Sequence record: OM735461.1
Length of the DNA: 38,270 bases
Strand: one strand, 5' to 3'
Source of the DNA: Escherichia phage BUCT618
The translations under genes were made by a program, and so were the position numbers. Position 1 is the stretch's first letter, and every line of letters begins with the position of its first letter. A model generated the notes under the pieces. The model saw only the letters and a program-made list of their open reading frames with translations, had not been told where the DNA came from and did no database searches. This document shows positions 1 through 26,379 of the stretch, piece by piece.

Positions 1-19
1 CCATTCCGGGCCTTTTCTT

Positions 20-2389
20 TTACCATGCTGAAAGGTTGTAGCCGGTGACCAGGTTGTCAGAGATGGCGTCTAGCGTAGGGTCAACCTGGTCGTCGTGCTT
101 TCCGTTAGGGAATACGGAGAATTCACCGATGTAGGCAGGCATCCACGGAGCATCCTTCGGCAGGTGAACAAGGCCCGCCTCAATCTGCGGCAGAACATCC
201 AGGGCGCGGGTGAATTTATCCACCGAGCGCTGAATCGGGATTACCGGCACACCCTCCATTTTCAGCGTCTGAATCAGGCCGGTTCCGCTGGCCTTATCCT
301 CAATCTTCATTCCGCGAACAACGCCACGGTTAATGGGTGATTTGTGCAAATCCCAGAATGCGCGAGCCTGTTTTATGAGGTCCGGCGCCTCCCATTTACC
401 ACGAATCTGGTCGAGCAGATAGGCGTGGCCGTTTTTGAATCCCCAGCACTGGAATACAGACCAGTCGTTGTGCTCTTTTGTTTTGAGAGCGGTATCTGCG
501 TATATAACGCGATAATCCCACTCCGGGTGCACAAAGCTGTTGTCGTACCACTGCCACCAGCTGTCTTTGAAAAGGCCGCCGCCTTTCGGTGCAGGGCGCT
601 GCATGTACTGACCAGCGAATACGTAAGGGTTACTGGCCTCCATCTCTGCCAGCTTCTCACGTGAGTGCTTAAAGGGCCACAAGGCGGTGTCATCTGGGTT
701 TACGGCAGGGATACTAAGTACATGCCACTGCTCGCCATTTCCGCCAGCCTGTAGCCATCCTGCAAGGTCTTCCTCGTGGAGTCTCTGCATGATAACGATA
801 ATTGGCGTATCAGGGCTGTTCAGGCGTGATTCCATCGTGGTCTGGAACCAGTCAATGACATTCTGCCGCATGGTGTCAGAATTGGCCTCGCTTGCCTTAT
901 GCGGGTCATCAATTATGATACAGTTAGATACAACGGCACCTGTTTGTGATAATATGAAGTTGTTGTTATCTTCAACCCCTAAACAATAGGTTTCATCAAC
1001 ATGACCGATATACTCAACGAAACATGGCTGACCATCCCCAACACCAATGGGCTTTACGAGGTTTCCGATGCTGGAAATGTCAGAAGGACACGTCCCATCC
1101 GAGCGCTTAAGCCTTCTGTTGACTCCAAAGGATACTTGAGAGTCAACCTTTCCGTTGGCGGTAAGGTCACCTGCAAATACATCGCTCACCTTGTCGCTGA
1201 GAATTTTATAGGCGAAAGGCCCCATAAGAATGAGGTTAGGCACCTGGACGGGAACCCCATGAATAACACCCTTAGCAATCTCGCGTATGGCACTAAGTCC
1301 GACAACATGCAGGACGCTTTGCGGCATGGAACATTCCCCGTGCTCGAAAGAAGACCAGGAGCAGTCCTCGACAGAGTAAAGGTTGTTGAAATATTCCAGA
1401 GCGCCGATGATGCTAAAACTCTCGCTGCCAGGTACGGAGTTAGCGTCGGGGTTATCAGGCAGATCAAACTCAGACAGACATGGCGTAGCGTCACGAATGG
1501 ATTGCCTGATGCTCGGTGGAATGCAAAGCCAAAGCACTCGAAGGAAGTGATAAAAATCGCCATCGACCGGCGCTACAGCAGGGAAGAGGCTTGCAGACTC
1601 ACCGGACTTTCTTTGCACCAGATTAAGAGGCTTCGCAAGATGAATGGCGGAGACCCATCCGGCATCGGTTAATATTTCATGATCAGGAGTGCACTCAAAT
1701 GAAGACCCATCATCAAAGTGCACTCTTATAATGTCATTGCCAGGGTTTACCCACTTGTGAGTGATCCGCTTAACTTCAGCAACCTGATTATTCTCATTGA
1801 ATGAGTTTACCTCCATGACACCGCTGTGGATTATGTCATAGATGGATAGCTCTCCGTCAGGAGTGGAAATAATCTGGCTAGCTGGGAAGCAACCGCCGAA
1901 GCCTTCACGCAGTTTACCTGCGCCATACCCTGTGATAGTCCCGTCCGAACCGGTGGCATAGACGCAGCCGCCGGTTTTGGTGCGCCACTCGTCTTTAGCC
2001 TTAGCGTCCGGCATCATGCCGATGTCGCCGAATACGGCACGGTACTCTTCAGACATGGCAATGGCGCGGGCCTGGTAGGTGTTATTTGCTGCAAGGCGCT
2101 TGGAGTAGCTGGCGTGGATAAATTCGCAGTCAGGATAGTTCCCGATAGCCCAGGCCATGAAGTTGACCACAGCAAGCTCGGTCTTTGAGTAGCGAGGGGG
2201 GATATTGATAATCAGGCGTTTGTACTGTCCGATAAAGCACCGCTCGAGCGCCTCGCAGATTTTCGCATGATGCCAGTTCTCCACAAAGTCAAAGCCCTTG
2301 CGGGCCTTGAACATGTATTTGGAAAACTCAAGCAGGTCACATCGCAGGGTAGCGATGTCGTCGGCGGAAAGTTTAATCTCTTGAGCCAT
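20..2389 (-). CDS. terL: Terminase large subunit precursor (166-aa N-extein + 323-aa intein + 300-aa C-extein; mature product would be 466 aa)
   Basis: Uninterrupted 789-codon ORF. Walker-A-like IPPRYSKTE and Walker B CIIIDDPHK. C-terminal nuclease-like region. SD GAAGGAAG upstream of the ATG. Start overlaps the TerS stop. Confidence 0.9.
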   Translation of the reverse strand: MAQEIKLSADDIATLRCDLLEFSKYMFKARKGFDFVENWHHAKICEALERCFIGQYKRLIINIPPRYSKTELAVVNFMAWAIGNYPDCEFIHASYSKRLAANNTYQARAIAMSEEYRAVFGDIGMMPDAKAKDEWRTKTGGCVYATGSDGTITGYGAGKLREGFGGCFPASQIISTPDGELSIYDIIHSGVMEVNSFNENNQVAEVKRITHKWVNPGNDIIRVHFDDGSSFECTPDHEILTDAGWVSAIHLAKPLNLVQRKSGESASLFPAVAPVDGDFYHFLRVLWLCIPPSIRQSIRDATPCLSEFDLPDNPDANSVPGSESFSIIGALEYFNNLYSVEDCSWSSFEHGECSMPQSVLHVVGLSAIREIAKGVIHGVPVQVPNLILMGPFAYKILSDKVSDVFAGDLTANGKVDSQVSFGVNRRLKRSDGTCPSDISSIGNLVKPIGVGDGQPCFVEYIGHVDETYCLGVEDNNNFILSQTGAVVSNCIIIDDPHKASEANSDTMRQNVIDWFQTTMESRLNSPDTPIIVIMQRLHEEDLAGWLQAGGNGEQWHVLSIPAVNPDDTALWPFKHSREKLAEMEASNPYVFAGQYMQRPAPKGGGLFKDSWWQWYDNSFVHPEWDYRVIYADTALKTKEHNDWSVFQCWGFKNGHAYLLDQIRGKWEAPDLIKQARAFWDLHKSPINRGVVRGMKIEDKASGTGLIQTLKMEGVPVIPIQRSVDKFTRALDVLPQIEAGLVHLPKDAPWMPAYIGEFSVFPNGKHDDQVDPTLDAISDNLVTGYNLSAW
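945..955 (+). promoter_or_regulatory. Candidate extended -10 promoter (tGTGATAATAT) for the antisense HNH gene
   Basis: TG-n-TAATAT lies 46 nt upstream of the HNH ATG. It shares the GTGATA core with candidate late promoters at 30331-30339 and 23344-23352. Confidence 0.3.
1001..1672 (+). CDS. HNH homing endonuclease (NUMOD4-like N-terminus, HNH_3-like core, two C-terminal HTH-like segments), encoded antisense inside the intein
   Basis: WLTIPNTNGLYEVSDAGNVRR; GYLRVNL..YIAHLVAENFIG..EVRHLDGNPMNNTLSNLAYGTKSDNMQD; ARYGVSVGVIRQIK and ACRLTGLSLHQIKRLRK. Confidence 0.85.
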   Translation: MTDILNETWLTIPNTNGLYEVSDAGNVRRTRPIRALKPSVDSKGYLRVNLSVGGKVTCKYIAHLVAENFIGERPHKNEVRHLDGNPMNNTLSNLAYGTKSDNMQDALRHGTFPVLERRPGAVLDRVKVVEIFQSADDAKTLAARYGVSVGVIRQIKLRQTWRSVTNGLPDARWNAKPKHSKEVIKIAIDRRYSREEACRLTGLSLHQIKRLRKMNGGDPSGIG

Positions 2390-2999
2390 ACTTCCTTCTG
2401 AGCGCCTCAGTTACATCTGAGCCTTGTGGTGACATTGAACCGTCGCTTGAGATGTGGTTGACGGTTTCTTTGTATCCGCCAAGCATCTTGATGAGCATAT
2501 CCTGCGCCTTCTGCTGGTCTGCCATCTCGAACTTCGGACCCATCTTCGTGAAGGTGATGCCTTTGATGAGTCCGCGAATCTCTTCGGGTACTTCATCAGA
2601 TGACATCTTCACGACCGGCACAGCCATCTCACCAATCACCTCGCCGTCCTCGTTCACCATTGGGCGTTTCTCCCATCCGATGAACTGAGTCACGTCGGCA
2701 AACGCCTGAGCCTGGATGCGTGATGCAATTTCGTCAAGGCTCATGAGTTTTGACTTGGCAATAAGCCTGCGAGCCTCGCGGATGTATGGGCCGACTTTTG
2801 GATGGGTCAGCAATTTGCATCCAGCGACTACGGCAGACTTATATGCTACATCTTCGCCATAAGCATGGAGATACGCTCTCGTTGCGTTACCATTAGCAAT
2901 ATAATGATTAGCAAATGTTAAATGGTCTTTACTCAGTTGAGCCGCCATTTCCTCAAGCTCAGGCGTGAAGAAAGGCAGCTTATCGTCTGCCTCTGCCAT
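2373..2999 (-). CDS. terS: Terminase small subunit
   Basis: N-terminal HTH-like FANHYIANGNATRAYLHAYG typical of Terminase_2-type small subunits. SD AAGGAGG. Sits directly upstream of and overlapping terL. Confidence 0.8.
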   Translation of the reverse strand: MAEADDKLPFFTPELEEMAAQLSKDHLTFANHYIANGNATRAYLHAYGEDVAYKSAVVAGCKLLTHPKVGPYIREARRLIAKSKLMSLDEIASRIQAQAFADVTQFIGWEKRPMVNEDGEVIGEMAVPVVKMSSDEVPEEIRGLIKGITFTKMGPKFEMADQQKAQDMLIKMLGGYKETVNHISSDGSMSPQGSDVTEALRRKYGSRD

Positions 3000-3000
3000 G

Positions 3001-3201
3001 TCAATCCTCCTTCACCAGCACCAGTTTAAACCGTGAACGAGCGACTTTCTCGCCATAGTTATGGATGGCGCGCGGGTTTGGTGTATTAAAACTTTTACTG
3101 CGGCCCGGAGTAATGAATACATCCTCGCCATTAGCCGCAGCATCCATTGCTTCCTTCATGCCGTTACGGATAAAGTCACGCGGGGTAAATTGTTTCATCA
3201 T
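3001..3201 (-). CDS. Hypothetical small protein, first gene of the packaging operon
   Basis: 66-aa ORF. SD AAAGGA. Its stop lies 1 nt from the TerS ATG. Confidence 0.55.
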   Translation of the reverse strand: MMKQFTPRDFIRNGMKEAMDAAANGEDVFITPGRSKSFNTPNPRAIHNYGEKVARSRFKLVLVKED

Positions 3202-3224
3202 TAATCCTTTCCGTTGTTTCCCCT

Positions 3225-3253
3225 ATTATCGCCCCGCAATGAAACAGTGTCAA
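3225..3253 (-). promoter_or_regulatory. Sigma70-like promoter of the packaging operon (GGTTGACAC-N17-GATAAT)
   Basis: TTGACA at 3253..3248 and GATAAT at 3230..3225. The -35 box contains the TGA stop of the upstream gene. Confidence 0.6.
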
Positions 3254-3750
3254 CCTCGGTATGATTTGATTTCACTGCGCACCCAGTTGCGGGGGATGGA
3301 GAATGTACCCATCTTCTTGCCTGATTCGGATGCCTCTTTGCACTCCAGTCTTCCATCCTCTTCTCGATACCTTGCATTGTTTACCACCTCTTTCAGCCAG
3401 AAGTCGCCATTGACTTTATGGGTGAAGGTTCGCAGTCCATCTTCGGTTGTGACATCTACGGCCATTTCTACATTGCGCAGGATGTTCACGACAGTTCTCC
3501 AGTCACGGAAGCCGTACTTCTTAACCAGGTCTATAGCGGGGATCAGGTCCGGGTCGATTTTGGTGGCTGCTTCTATGAAAGCCTGCTTATCAACCTCGGC
3601 TGACTCCTTGCGTCCTTTAACTTCACTCCGAAGTGTCCGTACTTCTGACTTAACGGATTTAAGTTCAGTGGTGAGTGATTTTACCTGCTCAATCAGCTTT
3701 TCAACATGAAGGGCCAGGTTTGCGTAGTGCGGGGTTGGTTTGCGTTTCAT
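3250..3750 (-). CDS. Hypothetical protein with N-terminal coiled coil
   Basis: ORF track 3250..3774. Start preferred at the internal ATG 3750 because of SD AAGGAG (MKRKPTPHY..). Heptad-like LIEQVKSLTTELKSVKSEVRTLRSEV. Confidence 0.6.
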   Translation of the reverse strand: MKRKPTPHYANLALHVEKLIEQVKSLTTELKSVKSEVRTLRSEVKGRKESAEVDKQAFIEAATKIDPDLIPAIDLVKKYGFRDWRTVVNILRNVEMAVDVTTEDGLRTFTHKVNGDFWLKEVVNNARYREEDGRLECKEASESGKKMGTFSIPRNWVRSEIKSYRG

Positions 3751-3780
3751 GGTTATCTCCTTAGTGTCATGCATGAGGAG

Positions 3781-25350: not shown

Positions 25351-26379
25351 TTAAATCCCGTTAGTTACAGTAACAGACAGCGGGAAGTATACCACAACGC
25401 CAGCGGTTGCCAGGTAGCCATCCACCACAGTTGCCAGGTTGCGAGCTTCTGGCGGCATCATGGTAAACGGTTTTGGAACCTCAACGCCGAGCTTCTCGGA
25501 ATCGTTGCGATAGTGAATCATAGCGCTGTTGGTCTGACCGGTTCCCTGCGGACCCAGCCATTCCACGGTTTCAACCGTGATTTCCGGGTAGGATTTCTTG
25601 AAGCGCTCCATCGCATTCTCGCCGGTGTTATCGGTGAAGAATGTGGTGCGGGCACGCTCATAGCTCGCAGATGTCATGACGACGGTATCAGGACGCTCAG
25701 CGCCGATGGTGTCTGTCGCCTGCTGGGTAATTGGGTAAACCAGGTCAGCATAGATTTCTTCTGCTGTTTTAGTTGCCCAGGTCGATGTACCCTTCGCGCC
25801 GTTTGTTGCGGTGCGAGTGGTAACGTTCGGCGCGTTATACAGACCGGTAAGACCAGTTTCAGCATCGCCAACCCAGATGATCTGGTCCAGCTTCTGCTCT
25901 GCTGCATTTCGGATCGCCATACCCTTACGGTCAACGATATTCATGCCAGCAACGGTTGCTTTGGCGATTTCGAATACGCTGTAAATAATCGAGCCACCGA
26001 ATGCACGGATGTTTACAACCTTCTTCTCGCCAGTGACCTCGATGTTTGGCAGGTCGTCGGCGTAGTTGGTGATGTGCTCCAGCATACCAACGCGGTCAGC
26101 GACAGTGTAGGCAAACTCTTCAGCACCGAATGGCGCTTCGTTCTGCATAGGCAGCAGGTTTTTACCCTTGAATTGCGGGTATGCCTTCTCCCGGATGCGG
26201 TTAGACATCGCCTGCAACTGCTGCGCAAAGATAACACCGGTTGCGGCATCAGCACGGAAGCCAAGCTGTTGCACATCCAGCGCTTTAGATACCAGGCTCG
26301 CCAGCATGGTAGGAGTGGTTTCCCAGCCCGCATCCAGCTTCACGCCCTTAAGATGATCCAGTCGTAAATTGATATTCAT
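25351..26379 (-). CDS. Major capsid protein
   Basis: 342 aa. Position after the scaffold and decoration genes and before a terminator. No TTA/CTA/TCA across codons 5-288, the span covered by the register-frame antisense ORF 25513-26367. Confidence 0.75.
   Translation of the reverse strand: MNINLRLDHLKGVKLDAGWETTPTMLASLVSKALDVQQLGFRADAATGVIFAQQLQAMSNRIREKAYPQFKGKNLLPMQNEAPFGAEEFAYTVADRVGMLEHITNYADDLPNIEVTGEKKVVNIRAFGGSIIYSVFEIAKATVAGMNIVDRKGMAIRNAAEQKLDQIIWVGDAETGLTGLYNAPNVTTRTATNGAKGTSTWATKTAEEIYADLVYPITQQATDTIGAERPDTVVMTSASYERARTTFFTDNTGENAMERFKKSYPEITVETVEWLGPQGTGQTNSAMIHYRNDSEKLGVEVPKPFTMMPPEARNLATVVDGYLATAGVVVYFPLSVTVTNGI

What the first reader, a model, noticed from the sequence alone, without database searches (positions are those of the whole stretch)
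1001..1672. Codon-level signature of dual-strand coding in the HNH gene
The two genes overlap codon for codon, with position 1 opposite position 3. In this register the only sense codons that create antisense stops are TTA, CTA and TCA.

By my manual reading:
- None of the HNH gene's 20 Leu codons is TTA or CTA; they are CTT, CTC, CTG or TTG.
- None of its 13 Ser codons is TCA.
- 14 of its 22 Arg codons are AGA/AGG, which looks unusual beside the surrounding phage genes.

This fits a foreign gene whose synonymous sites are constrained to keep the essential terL frame open. It does not prove that. The major capsid gene in this window also lacks these three codons over 284 codons, purely through codon bias (see rejected items). 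A quantitative test is therefore needed.
Basis: seen in the sequence. Interest (0 to 1): 0.6.

Follow-up and report, generated by a model that had tools for sequence, protein, structure and literature searches.

The report
Terminase intein carrying antisense HNH gene
The phage's essential DNA-packaging gene is interrupted by a self-splicing protein element (intein) whose homing nuclease is encoded on the opposite DNA strand. That nuclease gene avoids the three codons that would put stop codons into the packaging gene, both here and in dozens of related phages.

Summary

- **What it is:** window 20-2389(-) is the 789-aa TerL of Escherichia phage BUCT618. It carries a 323-aa class-1 intein (923-1891) just before Walker B. 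The NUMOD4/HNH_3 gene (1001-1672, +), which resembles I-HmuI, lies antisense and codon-for-codon where an intein normally holds its endonuclease domain.
- **Within this genome:** under this genome's codon usage, the chance of an open antisense frame is 3-6e-4.
- **Comparative evidence (decisive):** 51 related loci (52 with the window), falling into at least 26 lineages and down to 32% HNH identity, have zero TTA/CTA/TCA. This includes AT-rich phages whose exteins use TTA heavily. Free-standing relatives carry 1-14 such codons.
- **Which frame is selected:** substitutions show purifying selection on the HNH frame (dN/dS 0.07-0.27) and none on the antisense peptide. AlphaFold gives that peptide no confident fold.
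- **Mobility:** near-identical TerL alleles lack the intein. The intein is more similar between phages than its exteins are.
- **Expression signals:** the HNH promoter-like site, Shine-Dalgarno and ATG lie inside the Hint C-terminal blocks.
- **AGA/AGG excess:** real, but unrelated to stop avoidance.

Antisense LAGLIDADG and VSR-like endonucleases in inteins are already known. I found no report of an antisense HNH.

The parts
20..2389 (-). terL ORF: 789 codons plus a stop at 20-22. This is the precursor of the large terminase subunit with its intein. It equals UOK17883.1 of Escherichia phage BUCT618.
   Evidence: ORF list. Pfam Terminase_6C hit at E = 4e-12. 100% match to P0038, 'terminase large subunit [Escherichia phage BUCT618]', on a 38,270-nt contig.
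1892..2389 (-). N-extein, TerL residues 1-166, ending ...GKLREGFGG.
   Evidence: Boundaries. Colinear with intein-less alleles L001-L005.
923..1891 (-). Intein of 323 aa (TerL residues 167-489). It starts at Cys1 (CFPASQ...) and ends ...AVVSN. It is an exact 969-nt insertion relative to the empty alleles.
   Evidence: for boundaries and for the empty alleles (GFGG|A-IIIDDPHK). A family profile hits solved inteins: NrdJ-1 at 7.7e-18 and Npu DnaE at 6e-16. All 18 members tested hit Pfam Intein_splicing.
1634..1891 (-). Hint N-terminal subdomain (blocks A and B). It contains Cys1, the invariant C67-T68-x-x-H71 (TPDH), and GWVSAIHL.
   Evidence: Alignment A2 invariants. AlphaFold pLDDT about 70-85.
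1025..1633 (-). Intein interior, about 200 aa, that is simply the reverse-complement reading of the HNH gene. It is not conserved as protein and has no domain.
   Evidence: No Pfam domain in this frame in any of 18 members. Antisense-frame dN/dS is 0.6-2.7. pLDDT is 25-45 for residues 256-436, with 34 intein-bearing sequences in the alignment.
923..1027 (-). Hint C-terminal subdomain (blocks F and G): ...PCFVEYIGH-VDETYCLGVEDNNNFILSQTGAVVSN. The His at 1001-1003 (CAT) is the antisense of the HNH start codon ATG.
   Evidence: A2 invariants C303, L304, N323 and nearly invariant H297. Upstream alignments.
920..922 (-). +1 Cys codon (TGT), the first residue of the C-extein. Intein-less alleles have Ala (GCA/GCC) here.
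23..922 (-). C-extein, TerL residues 490-789. It begins C-IIIDDPHK (Walker B) and carries the nuclease domain.
1001..1672 (+). HNH homing-endonuclease gene (223 aa plus a stop at 1670-1672), antisense to the intein and in codon-for-codon register. Domains: NUMOD4 (aa 7-51, nt 1019-1153), HNH_3 (aa 63-104, nt 1187-1312), and C-terminal helical DNA-binding modules (aa 125-215).
   Evidence: Pfam NUMOD4 at 40.1 bits and HNH_3 at 37.6 bits, both above gathering. AlphaFold pLDDT 82. The best solved fold is I-HmuI 1u3e at E = 3e-8, and the profile-to-sequence match is E = 2e-21. R80, H81, N93 and N102 are invariant.
925..953 (+). Sigma-70-like promoter candidate for the HNH gene: TAGATA, 17 nt, then TGtGATAAT. 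The -10 element ends 47 nt upstream of the ATG. It lies inside the last intein codons (the antisense of ...ILSQTGAVVSN).
   Evidence: One search found 5 sites in 500-2000 against 1.3 +/- 1.2 in shuffles. The same site is present in L018. 12 other lineages have TTGACt-17-TATGAT ending 34 nt upstream. 14 of 21 lineages have a site against 3.7 expected under synonymous recoding. This is a consensus match only, not shown to function.
988..990 (+). Weak Shine-Dalgarno-like AGG (tAGGt) 10 nt upstream of the HNH ATG. It is the antisense of the block F codons Thr-Tyr. An in-frame TAA at 980-982 is the antisense of the invariant block F Leu (TTA).
   Evidence: Direct reading. Relatives carry AAGG or AGGAGG at the same place.

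Best explanation
This is a mobile intein in the large terminase gene. Its homing endonuclease is a free-standing-type HNH gene of the I-HmuI kind, lying on the opposite strand between the intein's splicing blocks.

**Shown**
- terL is one continuous 789-codon frame.
- Residues 167-489 have all the sequence hallmarks of a class-1 Hint domain: Cys1, TxxH, blocks F and G, terminal Asn, and +1 Cys. They are inserted precisely before Walker B.
- The roughly 200 residues between the two Hint halves are only the reverse-complement reading of the HNH gene.
- The HNH gene is under purifying selection. It never uses TTA, CTA or TCA, the only codons that would stop the terL frame in this register.

**Inferred**
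- The ribosome reads terL straight through the 'nonsense' stretch, which acts as a floppy linker.
- The Hint domain then splices the whole 323-aa insert out, giving a 466-aa active terminase.
- The HNH protein is made from a separate antisense transcript. Its promoter-like site, ribosome-binding site and ATG are embedded in the intein's C-terminal splicing blocks, so the whole cassette travels as one 969-nt unit.
- In mixed infections the HNH enzyme nicks or cuts intein-less terL alleles near the Walker B codons. Repair then copies the intein, the HNH gene and the +1 Cys codon into them.

The codon-for-codon antisense register is the one arrangement in which keeping the other frame open costs the HNH protein no amino-acid change, because Leu and Ser have other codons.
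For: **Anatomy**
- Boundaries and register.
- Empty alleles at 81-98% TerL amino-acid identity lack exactly 969 nt and have Ala instead of the +1 Cys.

**Intein identity**
- The profile hits solved inteins at E = 7.7e-18.
- 18 of 18 members hit Intein_splicing, with no endonuclease domain in that frame.
- Invariant residues are C1, T68, H71, C303, L304 and N323.

**HNH identity and integrity**
- Pfam hits are above threshold.
- pLDDT is 82 and the best fold match is I-HmuI.
- Catalytic residues are invariant.

**Stop avoidance**
- Probability for the window alone is 2e-4 to 6e-4.
- All 46 intein-resident relatives in IMG/VR and metagenomes, in at least 26 lineages down to 32% identity, have zero such codons. 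Summed log10 P is about -104 if lineages are treated as independent.
- AT-rich lineages switch from TTA (for example 31 of 63 extein Leu in L065) to CTT or TTG.
- Of 25 free-standing loci, 22 carry 1-14 such codons. The 3 exceptions are one GC-rich sequence.
- A held-out test in GTDB contigs gave 5 of 5 full-length relatives open and 2 of 2 short relatives closed.

**Selection**
- Differences at HNH codon positions 1, 2 and 3 are 8, 5, 53; 16, 10, 50; and 62, 23, 93.
- dN/dS is 0.07-0.27 for the HNH frame and 0.6-2.7 for the antisense frame.

**Linker**
- pLDDT is 25-45, against 70-95 for the Hint halves and exteins.

**Mobility**
- Window against L053: HNH pS 0.084, extein pS 0.36-0.45.
- L037 against L039: HNH pN 0.03, extein pN 0.15-0.18.

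**Expression signals**
Against: - Nothing here shows protein splicing, HNH expression or cleavage. All of this is sequence inference.
- The window's own Pfam Intein_splicing score (29.5 bits) is below the gathering score (35.8).
- The penultimate intein residue is Ser, not the usual His.
- The window's SD is weak (AGG). Its promoter-like site is a 9-of-12 consensus match, displaced 13 nt from the family's commonest position.
- In the closest pairs (window against L017 and L053) changes are equal at HNH positions 1 and 3 (8, 1, 8 and 12, 1, 9). Purifying selection on HNH is therefore not demonstrable within this particular clade from so few changes.
- The lineages are related, so the combined probabilities and the promoter test overstate independence.
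- One relative, L060, has a single TTA in the frame. Its 98.9% identical twin has ATA, and the contig has 2.8x coverage.
Confidence: 0.85

Rival explanations
1. The open antisense frame is a by-product of codon bias or base composition. No selection is needed.
For: The capsid gene has only 1 TTA/CTA/TCA codon in 342 and carries a spurious 284-aa antisense ORF. A GC-rich free-standing relative (L046, L075, L076) is open by chance over 181 codons.
Against: - P is 2e-4 to 6e-4 for the window under three different nulls.
- TCA is the commonest Ser codon in this genome.
- All 51 intein-resident relatives stay open across GC contents of 29-63%, while their own exteins use these codons at 1-6.6%.
- Free-standing relatives are closed.
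Confidence: 0.01
2. In BUCT618 the HNH ORF is a relic. The intein is fixed and inherited vertically, the endonuclease is no longer expressed or active, and only the terL frame is still under selection.
For: - The window clade shows equal numbers of changes at HNH positions 1 and 3.
- The ORF has lost the family's usual stop and runs 8-10 codons further into the Hint sequence.
- The SD is weak, and the family's TATGAT -10 element is replaced by TGTTGT.
- GenBank does not annotate the ORF.
Against: - The ORF is intact over 223 codons, although a neutral sequence would acquire stops.
- All catalytic and nearly invariant residues are kept.
- pN/pS is about 0.2 in the HNH frame even in the closest pairs.
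- An alternative TG-extended -10 promoter is present and shared with L018.
- The intein is 4-5 times closer at synonymous sites than the exteins between the window and L053, and closer TerL alleles lack it. Both point to recent movement.
Confidence: 0.1
3. The stretch read in the terL frame is itself a functional intein domain, and the plus-strand HNH ORF is incidental or secondary.
For: The frame is open and is translated as part of an essential protein. AlphaFold draws some helices there.
Against: - No Pfam domain in that frame in 18 members.
- pLDDT is 25-45.
- Column conservation is very low in A2.
- dN/dS in that frame is 0.6-2.7, and substitutions concentrate on its first codon position.
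- The opposite frame gives above-threshold NUMOD4 and HNH_3 hits and a confident I-HmuI-like model.
Confidence: 0.03
4. The insert is removed at the RNA level (a group I or II intron carrying an antisense HEG), or the HNH is a packaging-associated HNH working with terminase rather than a homing enzyme.
For: HNH_3/NUMOD4 enzymes such as I-HmuI are typically intron-encoded. Many phages place an HNH gene next to the terminase genes.
Against: - There is no Rfam family hit (including introns) in window 1-3000 at E <= 1.
- The frame is continuous, and the Hint blocks are conserved as protein.
- TerL alleles 95-98% identical lack the HNH altogether. Their contigs were not returned by the HNH scan of IMG/VR, so the gene is dispensable for packaging.
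Confidence: 0.01

Closest known systems
Non-canonical inteins with an endonuclease on the antisense strand. Examples are the anti-sense LAGLIDADG type (Synechocystis DnaX and Chloroflexus SpoVR-like inteins; Gorbalenya 1998 and Gogarten 2002, as cited in bioRxiv 10.1101/2025.01.02.630785) and the anti-sense VSR-like/EDxHD type in actinophage inteins (same preprint).
   Same: - An intact Hint domain, with the endonuclease ORF on the opposite strand between the splicing blocks.
- The intein frame stays open through it.
- Found in phage terminase large subunits, among other exteins.
- A sporadic distribution that suggests ongoing homing.
- A proposed origin by invasion of an intein by a free-standing HEG.
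   Different: - The endonuclease here is a NUMOD4/HNH_3 (I-HmuI-like) enzyme. The preprint lists HNH only as an in-frame intein domain.
- The hosts are Escherichia and diverse uncultured phages, not actinophages.
- This report adds a codon-level test: avoidance of TTA, CTA and TCA across at least 26 lineages.
- It also adds evidence that the promoter, SD and ATG are embedded in blocks F and G.
I-HmuI (PDB 1u3e), the HNH homing endonuclease of the group I intron in the Bacillus phage SPO1 DNA polymerase gene.
   Same: - The N-terminal beta-sheet (NUMOD4) plus the HNH beta-beta-alpha-metal motif plus helical DNA-binding modules.
- Profile E = 2e-21 and fold E = 3e-8.
- Catalytic His and Asn are conserved.
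   Different: - I-HmuI is encoded inside an RNA intron on the sense strand. Here the carrier is a protein intron, and the gene is antisense.
- About 26% identity.
- There is an extra C-terminal helical module.
- Nicking activity has not been tested here.
Hidden out-of-frame HNH insertions: the ShiLan element in phage DNA methylases (PMC11855218), and endonuclease VII-like HENs in another frame of actinophage inteins.
   Same: - An HNH gene nested inside a host ORF that stays free of stops when read in the host frame.
- Evidence of active homing.
- The question of how the nested gene is expressed.
   Different: - ShiLan is on the same strand in another frame and has no detectable splicing domain. 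Here the gene is antisense and flanked by a complete Hint domain.
- A same-strand out-of-frame HNH does occur in a second intein of relatives such as L041.
Fractured genes / split inteins with a free-standing HEG between the halves (Dassa et al. 2009, PMC2677866).
   Same: A free-standing-type endonuclease gene sits at the endonuclease insertion point of an intein. This fits the same evolutionary model, in which a HEG invades an intein.
   Different: In fractured genes the host gene and intein are broken into two ORFs that splice in trans. Here the frame is continuous and splicing would be in cis.

Membership tests
Intein (class 1 Hint domain) | In-frame insertion at a conserved site of a host protein, absent from close homologues. 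| tested here: met
   An exact 969-nt (323-codon) insertion before Walker B. L001-L005 (81-98% TerL identity) read GFGG-A-IIIDDPHK without it.
Intein (class 1 Hint domain) | N-terminal Cys/Ser/Thr nucleophile and the block B TxxH motif. | tested here: met
   Cys1, Thr68 and His71 are invariant in 18 diverse members.
Intein (class 1 Hint domain) | Blocks F and G, a C-terminal Asn, and a +1 Cys/Ser/Thr. | tested here: met
   ...YCL..(D/E)N(H/N)NF...VSN|C. Asn323 is invariant and the +1 residue is Cys in all members.
Intein (class 1 Hint domain) | Penultimate His (block G). Common, but not universal. | tested here: not met
   The window has Ser (VVSN). Relatives have Ser, His, Ala or Lys.
Intein (class 1 Hint domain) | Significant similarity to Hint or intein models. 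| tested here: met
   The family profile hits PDB inteins at E = 7.7e-18 (NrdJ-1) and 6e-16 (Npu DnaE). All 18 members hit Pfam Intein_splicing, best E = 1.8e-13. The window alone scores 29.5 bits, below the 35.8 gathering score.
Intein (class 1 Hint domain) | Protein splicing activity. | not testable with these tools
   Inferred only from the essentiality of TerL and the position of the insert inside the ATPase core.
HNH homing endonuclease, I-HmuI type (NUMOD4 + HNH_3) | Domain models above curated thresholds. | tested here: met
   NUMOD4 scores 40.1 against 23.4, and HNH_3 scores 37.6 against 24.8.
HNH homing endonuclease, I-HmuI type (NUMOD4 + HNH_3) | Catalytic His/Asn of the beta-beta-alpha-metal motif, and the fold. 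| tested here: met
   R80, H81, N89, N93 and N102 are invariant. The model has pLDDT 82, and the top PDB match is 1u3e.
HNH homing endonuclease, I-HmuI type (NUMOD4 + HNH_3) | Behaves as a mobile element: sporadic presence, and more similar between genomes than its flanks. | tested here: met
HNH homing endonuclease, I-HmuI type (NUMOD4 + HNH_3) | Site-specific nicking or cleavage of the empty allele. | not testable with these tools
   Needs biochemistry.
Inteins with an antisense-encoded endonuclease (Gorbalenya 1998; Gosselin et al. 2025 preprint) | The endonuclease ORF lies on the opposite strand between the splicing blocks, while the intein frame stays open. | tested here: met
Inteins with an antisense-encoded endonuclease (Gorbalenya 1998; Gosselin et al. 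2025 preprint) | The endonuclease is of the LAGLIDADG or VSR-like/EDxHD type, the types described so far. | tested here: not met
   It is NUMOD4/HNH_3. The preprint lists HNH only in-frame.
Group I/II intron carrying a HEG | A ribozyme core detectable at the RNA level, with the reading frame interrupted. | tested here: not met
   No Rfam hit at E <= 1 in window 1-3000. The frame is continuous.
Fractured gene / split intein | The host gene is split into two ORFs with the intein halves. | tested here: not met
   There is a single 789-codon ORF.

The most novel reading that the evidence does not exclude
The intein and the HNH gene form one bidirectional, three-layer coding cassette.

- The Hint C-terminal splicing blocks (F and G) simultaneously encode, on the other strand, the -35 and -10 promoter elements, the Shine-Dalgarno and the ATG of the endonuclease. 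The His before block F is CAT/ATG, and the NHN motif gives TATGAT.
- Synonymous sites in those blocks would then be selected for promoter quality.
- Synonymous sites of the HNH gene are selected for an open intein frame.
- Antisense transcription from this internal promoter might also time or damp terL expression.

This would be a previously undescribed family of HNH-bearing antisense inteins. It is widespread in terminases of enteric, gut and environmental phages.
Probability: 0.45. Interest if true: 0.7.

Novelty: new variant of a known kind. Interest (0 to 1): 0.62.

Why it matters
- **A natural experiment in overlapping coding.** It shows, with a clean statistical signature repeated in dozens of independent lineages, how two genes on opposite strands can share about 670 nt. 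The codon-for-codon register forbids only three codons, all of which can be replaced synonymously. An entire enzyme can therefore be hidden inside an essential gene at no protein cost.
- **More endonuclease types can be captured by inteins.** This adds the I-HmuI-type HNH to those found in the antisense arrangement. It supports the view that inteins acquire endonucleases by invasion of free-standing HEGs.
- **A practical annotation point.** The nuclease gene is not annotated in the GenBank record of this phage. Gene callers either miss it or split terL, so such elements are systematically overlooked.
- **A possible tool.** The roughly 200-aa tolerated 'nonsense' insert and a compact self-contained splicing-plus-homing cassette could be useful for intein engineering.

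Tried and rejected
- **Megablast of window 1-2400 against the phage collection** found nothing, so no annotated close relative was available there.
- **A protein search with the intein alone** returned no hit at E <= 1e-3. The full TerL query later showed that many intein-bearing TerLs are in the database, so that blank was a sensitivity artefact, not absence.
I used full-length TerL proteins instead.
I replaced it with genome usage, extein usage and the gene's own third-position composition.
- **AGA/AGG enrichment as a consequence of the overlap** is rejected. AGA and CGA both read as Ser, and AGG and CGG both read as Pro, on the other strand, and none makes a stop.
- **Low HNH pS relative to exteins as synonymous suppression** is rejected as the main cause. 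Third positions change freely in other pairs, and the antisense peptide is unconstrained.
- **An RNA intron** is rejected.
- **A packaging-associated HNH** is rejected.
- **Literature searches** for an antisense HNH or NUMOD4 endonuclease in an intein, and for BUCT618, found no description. The library lacks most subscription journals, so this is not proof of absence.


Full report
**1. The observation**

The ORF at 1001-1672(+) has 223 codons plus a stop. The long ORF at 20-2389(-) shares its codon phase, so the two are read codon-for-codon, with position 1 opposite position 3.

- Leu = 20, with no TTA or CTA.
- Ser = 13, with no TCA.
- Arg = 22, of which 14 are AGA or AGG.
- The antisense register frame has no stops. 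The other two antisense frames have 4 and 18.

**2. What the two genes are**

The plus-strand ORF matches Pfam NUMOD4 and HNH_3 above their gathering scores.

The minus-strand ORF is a 789-aa large terminase. It is 100% identical to UOK17883.1 of Escherichia phage BUCT618, and the contig length equals the window length.

TerL residues 167-489 are an intein.
- It begins CFPASQ...
- It contains ...CTPDH... (block B).
- It ends ...ETYCLGVEDNNNFILSQTGAVVSN, followed by Cys and then IIIDDPHK (Walker B).

A profile of 18 diverse relatives of this segment hits solved inteins: NrdJ-1 at E = 7.7e-18, Npu DnaE at 6e-16, and also Mtu RecA and DnaB. All 18 match Pfam Intein_splicing, and none matches an endonuclease domain in this frame.

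The HNH ORF covers TerL residues 240-463. That is exactly the place between blocks B and F where canonical inteins carry their endonuclease domain, but here the gene is on the other strand.
- Its stop region overlaps the Hint motif GWVSAIHL.
- Its ATG is the antisense of a nearly invariant His (CAT) just before block F.

No Rfam family, including introns, matches window 1-3000.

**3. Is the open frame chance? Within this genome**

TTA, CTA and TCA make up 2.9% of 10,653 codons in the other genes, and TCA is the commonest Ser codon (28%).

| Null model | P(frame stays open) |
|---|---|
| Genome codon usage (6.6 stops expected) | 6e-4 |
| TerL extein usage | 3.4e-4 |
| Gene's own third-position composition | 2.0e-4 |

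The capsid gene shows that strong codon bias can do the same thing. It has 1 such codon in 342 and a spurious 284-aa antisense ORF.

**4. Comparative test**

Searching with the HNH protein found close and distant relatives. Pattern scans of IMG/VR, JGI/ENA metagenomes and GTDB genomes returned 77 loci.

- **Intein-resident relatives.** Every relative that matches the full-length HNH, down to 32% identity, lies antisense inside a 750-1250-aa open frame. That frame is a TerL with an intein at the Walker B site, reading ...GG|C...(S/H/A/K)N|C...DDP.
- **Number of lineages.** Besides the window there are 51 such loci. The loci examined fall into 26 clusters below 90% HNH identity.
- **Result.** All 51 have zero TTA, CTA or TCA codons in the HNH gene.
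- **One exception.** L060, a further locus not counted among the 51, has one TTA where its 98.9% identical twin has ATA. It sits on a contig with 2.8x coverage.
- **Per-lineage probabilities.** Under local extein codon usage they range from 0.2 to 1e-10. The summed log10 is about -104, an overstatement to the extent that lineages are not independent.
- **AT-rich lineages.** The signal is strongest here (GC 29-40%). The exteins use TTA for up to half of their Leu codons, while the HNH gene uses CTT or TTG and never TTA.
- **Free-standing relatives.** Shorter relatives of the same family are not in inteins. They carry 1-14 of these codons in 22 of 25 loci. The three open ones are a single GC-rich sequence.
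- **Held-out check.** The GTDB scan was run after the hypothesis was formed. It gave 5 of 5 full-length relatives open and 2 of 2 short relatives closed.

**5. Which frame is selected?**

In pairs of intermediate divergence the differences fall mainly on HNH third positions.

| Pair | Differences at HNH positions 1, 2, 3 |
|---|---|
| L037-L039 | 8, 5, 53 |
| L026-L027 | 16, 10, 50 |
| L038-L065 | 45, 27, 64 |
| L015-L016 | 62, 23, 93 |

This gives dN/dS of 0.07-0.27 in the HNH frame and 0.6-2.7 in the antisense frame. The HNH protein is therefore conserved. The peptide read in the terL frame is free to vary as long as it contains no stop.

Structure predictions agree.
- The HNH model is confident (pLDDT 82). 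It resembles I-HmuI by fold (E = 3e-8) and by sequence profile (E = 2e-21), and its catalytic residues are invariant.
- Full TerL was modelled with an alignment that included 34 intein-bearing homologues. Exteins scored pLDDT about 85-95, the two Hint halves 65-85, and residues 256-436 only 25-45.

In the three closest sequences (the window, L017, L053) the few changes are split equally between positions 1 and 3. Selection cannot be resolved within that clade.

**6. Mobility**

- Five IMG/VR phages with 81-98% identical TerL lack exactly the 969-nt insert. They have Ala instead of the +1 Cys.
- L053 carries the intein at 94-97% nt identity, but its exteins are only 88-91% identical. Synonymous divergence is 0.084 in HNH against 0.36-0.45 in the exteins.
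- L037 against L039 shows the same pattern. HNH pN is 0.03 against 0.15-0.18 in the exteins.
- The family occupies two insertion points 3-4 residues apart, GG|C-IIIDD and xxI|C-DDP.

This is the pattern expected of a homing element.

**7. Expression signals (suggestive only)**

- A sigma-70-like site (TAGATA-17-TGtGATAAT, 925-953) lies 47 nt upstream of the ATG, inside the last intein codons.
- In 12 other lineages a TTGACt-16/17-TATGAT site ends exactly 34 nt upstream. The TATGAT element is the antisense of the block F motif N-H-N.
- Fourteen of 21 lineages have such a site. Only 3.7 are expected if the Hint codons are recoded synonymously with local usage.
- Most lineages have AAGG or AGGAGG 8-14 nt upstream of the ATG. 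The window has only AGG.

These are consensus matches in related sequences, not proof of function.

**8. AGA/AGG**

The excess is real. It is 14 of 22 here against 20% genome-wide (P = 1.2e-5), and 53% against 26% in exteins across the family.

It cannot be due to the overlap. AGA and CGA both read as Ser, and AGG and CGG both read as Pro, on the other strand. Its cause is unexplained. Possibilities are HEG-typical codon usage or attenuation of translation.

**9. Relation to what is known**

A 2025 preprint on actinophage inteins (10.1101/2025.01.02.630785) describes the following.
- Inteins with anti-sense LAGLIDADG endonucleases, first noted by Gorbalenya in 1998.
- Inteins with anti-sense VSR-like endonucleases.
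- HNH only as an in-frame domain.

The ShiLan element is an out-of-frame, same-strand HNH without splicing domains (PMC11855218).

I found no report of an antisense HNH in an intein. The library is incomplete, so this is not proof of absence. The exact HNH protein of this phage is absent from the protein collection, so it is apparently not annotated in GenBank.

**10. Verdict**

The element is a new variant (HNH type, widespread in terminases) of a known but rare architecture. Splicing, expression and cleavage remain untested.

Noticed in passing
L041:1177-2032 (also L065, L069-L072): Some relatives carry a second intein near the TerL C-terminus, at the nuclease motif HDD|(S)C...VSN|C. Inside it is a 178-aa HNH ORF (L041:1286-1822, minus strand) on the same strand as terL but in another frame. 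One terminase gene therefore hosts both an antisense HNH and an out-of-frame sense HNH.
   Followed up: partly
L033:1819-5571: This 1251-aa TerL has an additional N-terminal intein near the P-loop (INVPPG|...). It has what looks like an in-frame LAGLIDADG-type region, as well as the Walker B intein with the antisense HNH.
   Followed up: no
window 25351-26379 (-) and 25513-26367 (+): The major capsid gene has only one TTA/CTA/TCA codon in 342 (a run of 337). This creates a spurious 284-aa antisense ORF. It is a useful in-genome control showing that codon bias alone can open this frame.
   Followed up: yes
window 1001-1672 and family loci: AGA/AGG make up 53% of Arg codons in the intein-resident HNH genes, against 26% in their own exteins. 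The HNH value is higher in most of the 25 lineages tabulated, and in the window it is 64% against 12%. The overlap does not explain this, and the cause is unknown.
   Followed up: partly
window 920-922; L024-L067 junctions: Homologous inteins occupy two insertion points 3-4 residues apart in the Walker B strand, GG|C-IIIDD and xxI|C-DDP. The +1 Cys replaces an Ala of the empty alleles.
   Followed up: partly
window 1001-1672: The exact HNH protein is absent from the 15-billion-protein collection, while the 789-aa TerL is present as an NCBI entry. The deposited BUCT618 annotation therefore apparently omits the nuclease gene. In short metagenomic contigs, gene callers instead call the HNH and truncate terL.
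   Followed up: partly
window 1643-1672: The window's HNH ORF runs 8-10 codons past the position of the stop codon in most relatives (...KMNR*). This extends the two-strand overlap into the conserved Hint motif LTDAGWVSAIH.
   Followed up: partly
L060:613-615: This is the only intein-resident relative with an antisense stop: TTA where its 98.9% identical twin L024 has ATA. The contig has 2.8x coverage, so it may be a sequencing error or a dead allele.
   Followed up: partly
window 3065-3709 (+) vs 3250-3774 (-): Two long ORFs overlap on opposite strands downstream of terS. The plus-strand one has 8.4% TTA/CTA/TCA codons. Which of the two is the real gene was not examined.
   Followed up: no
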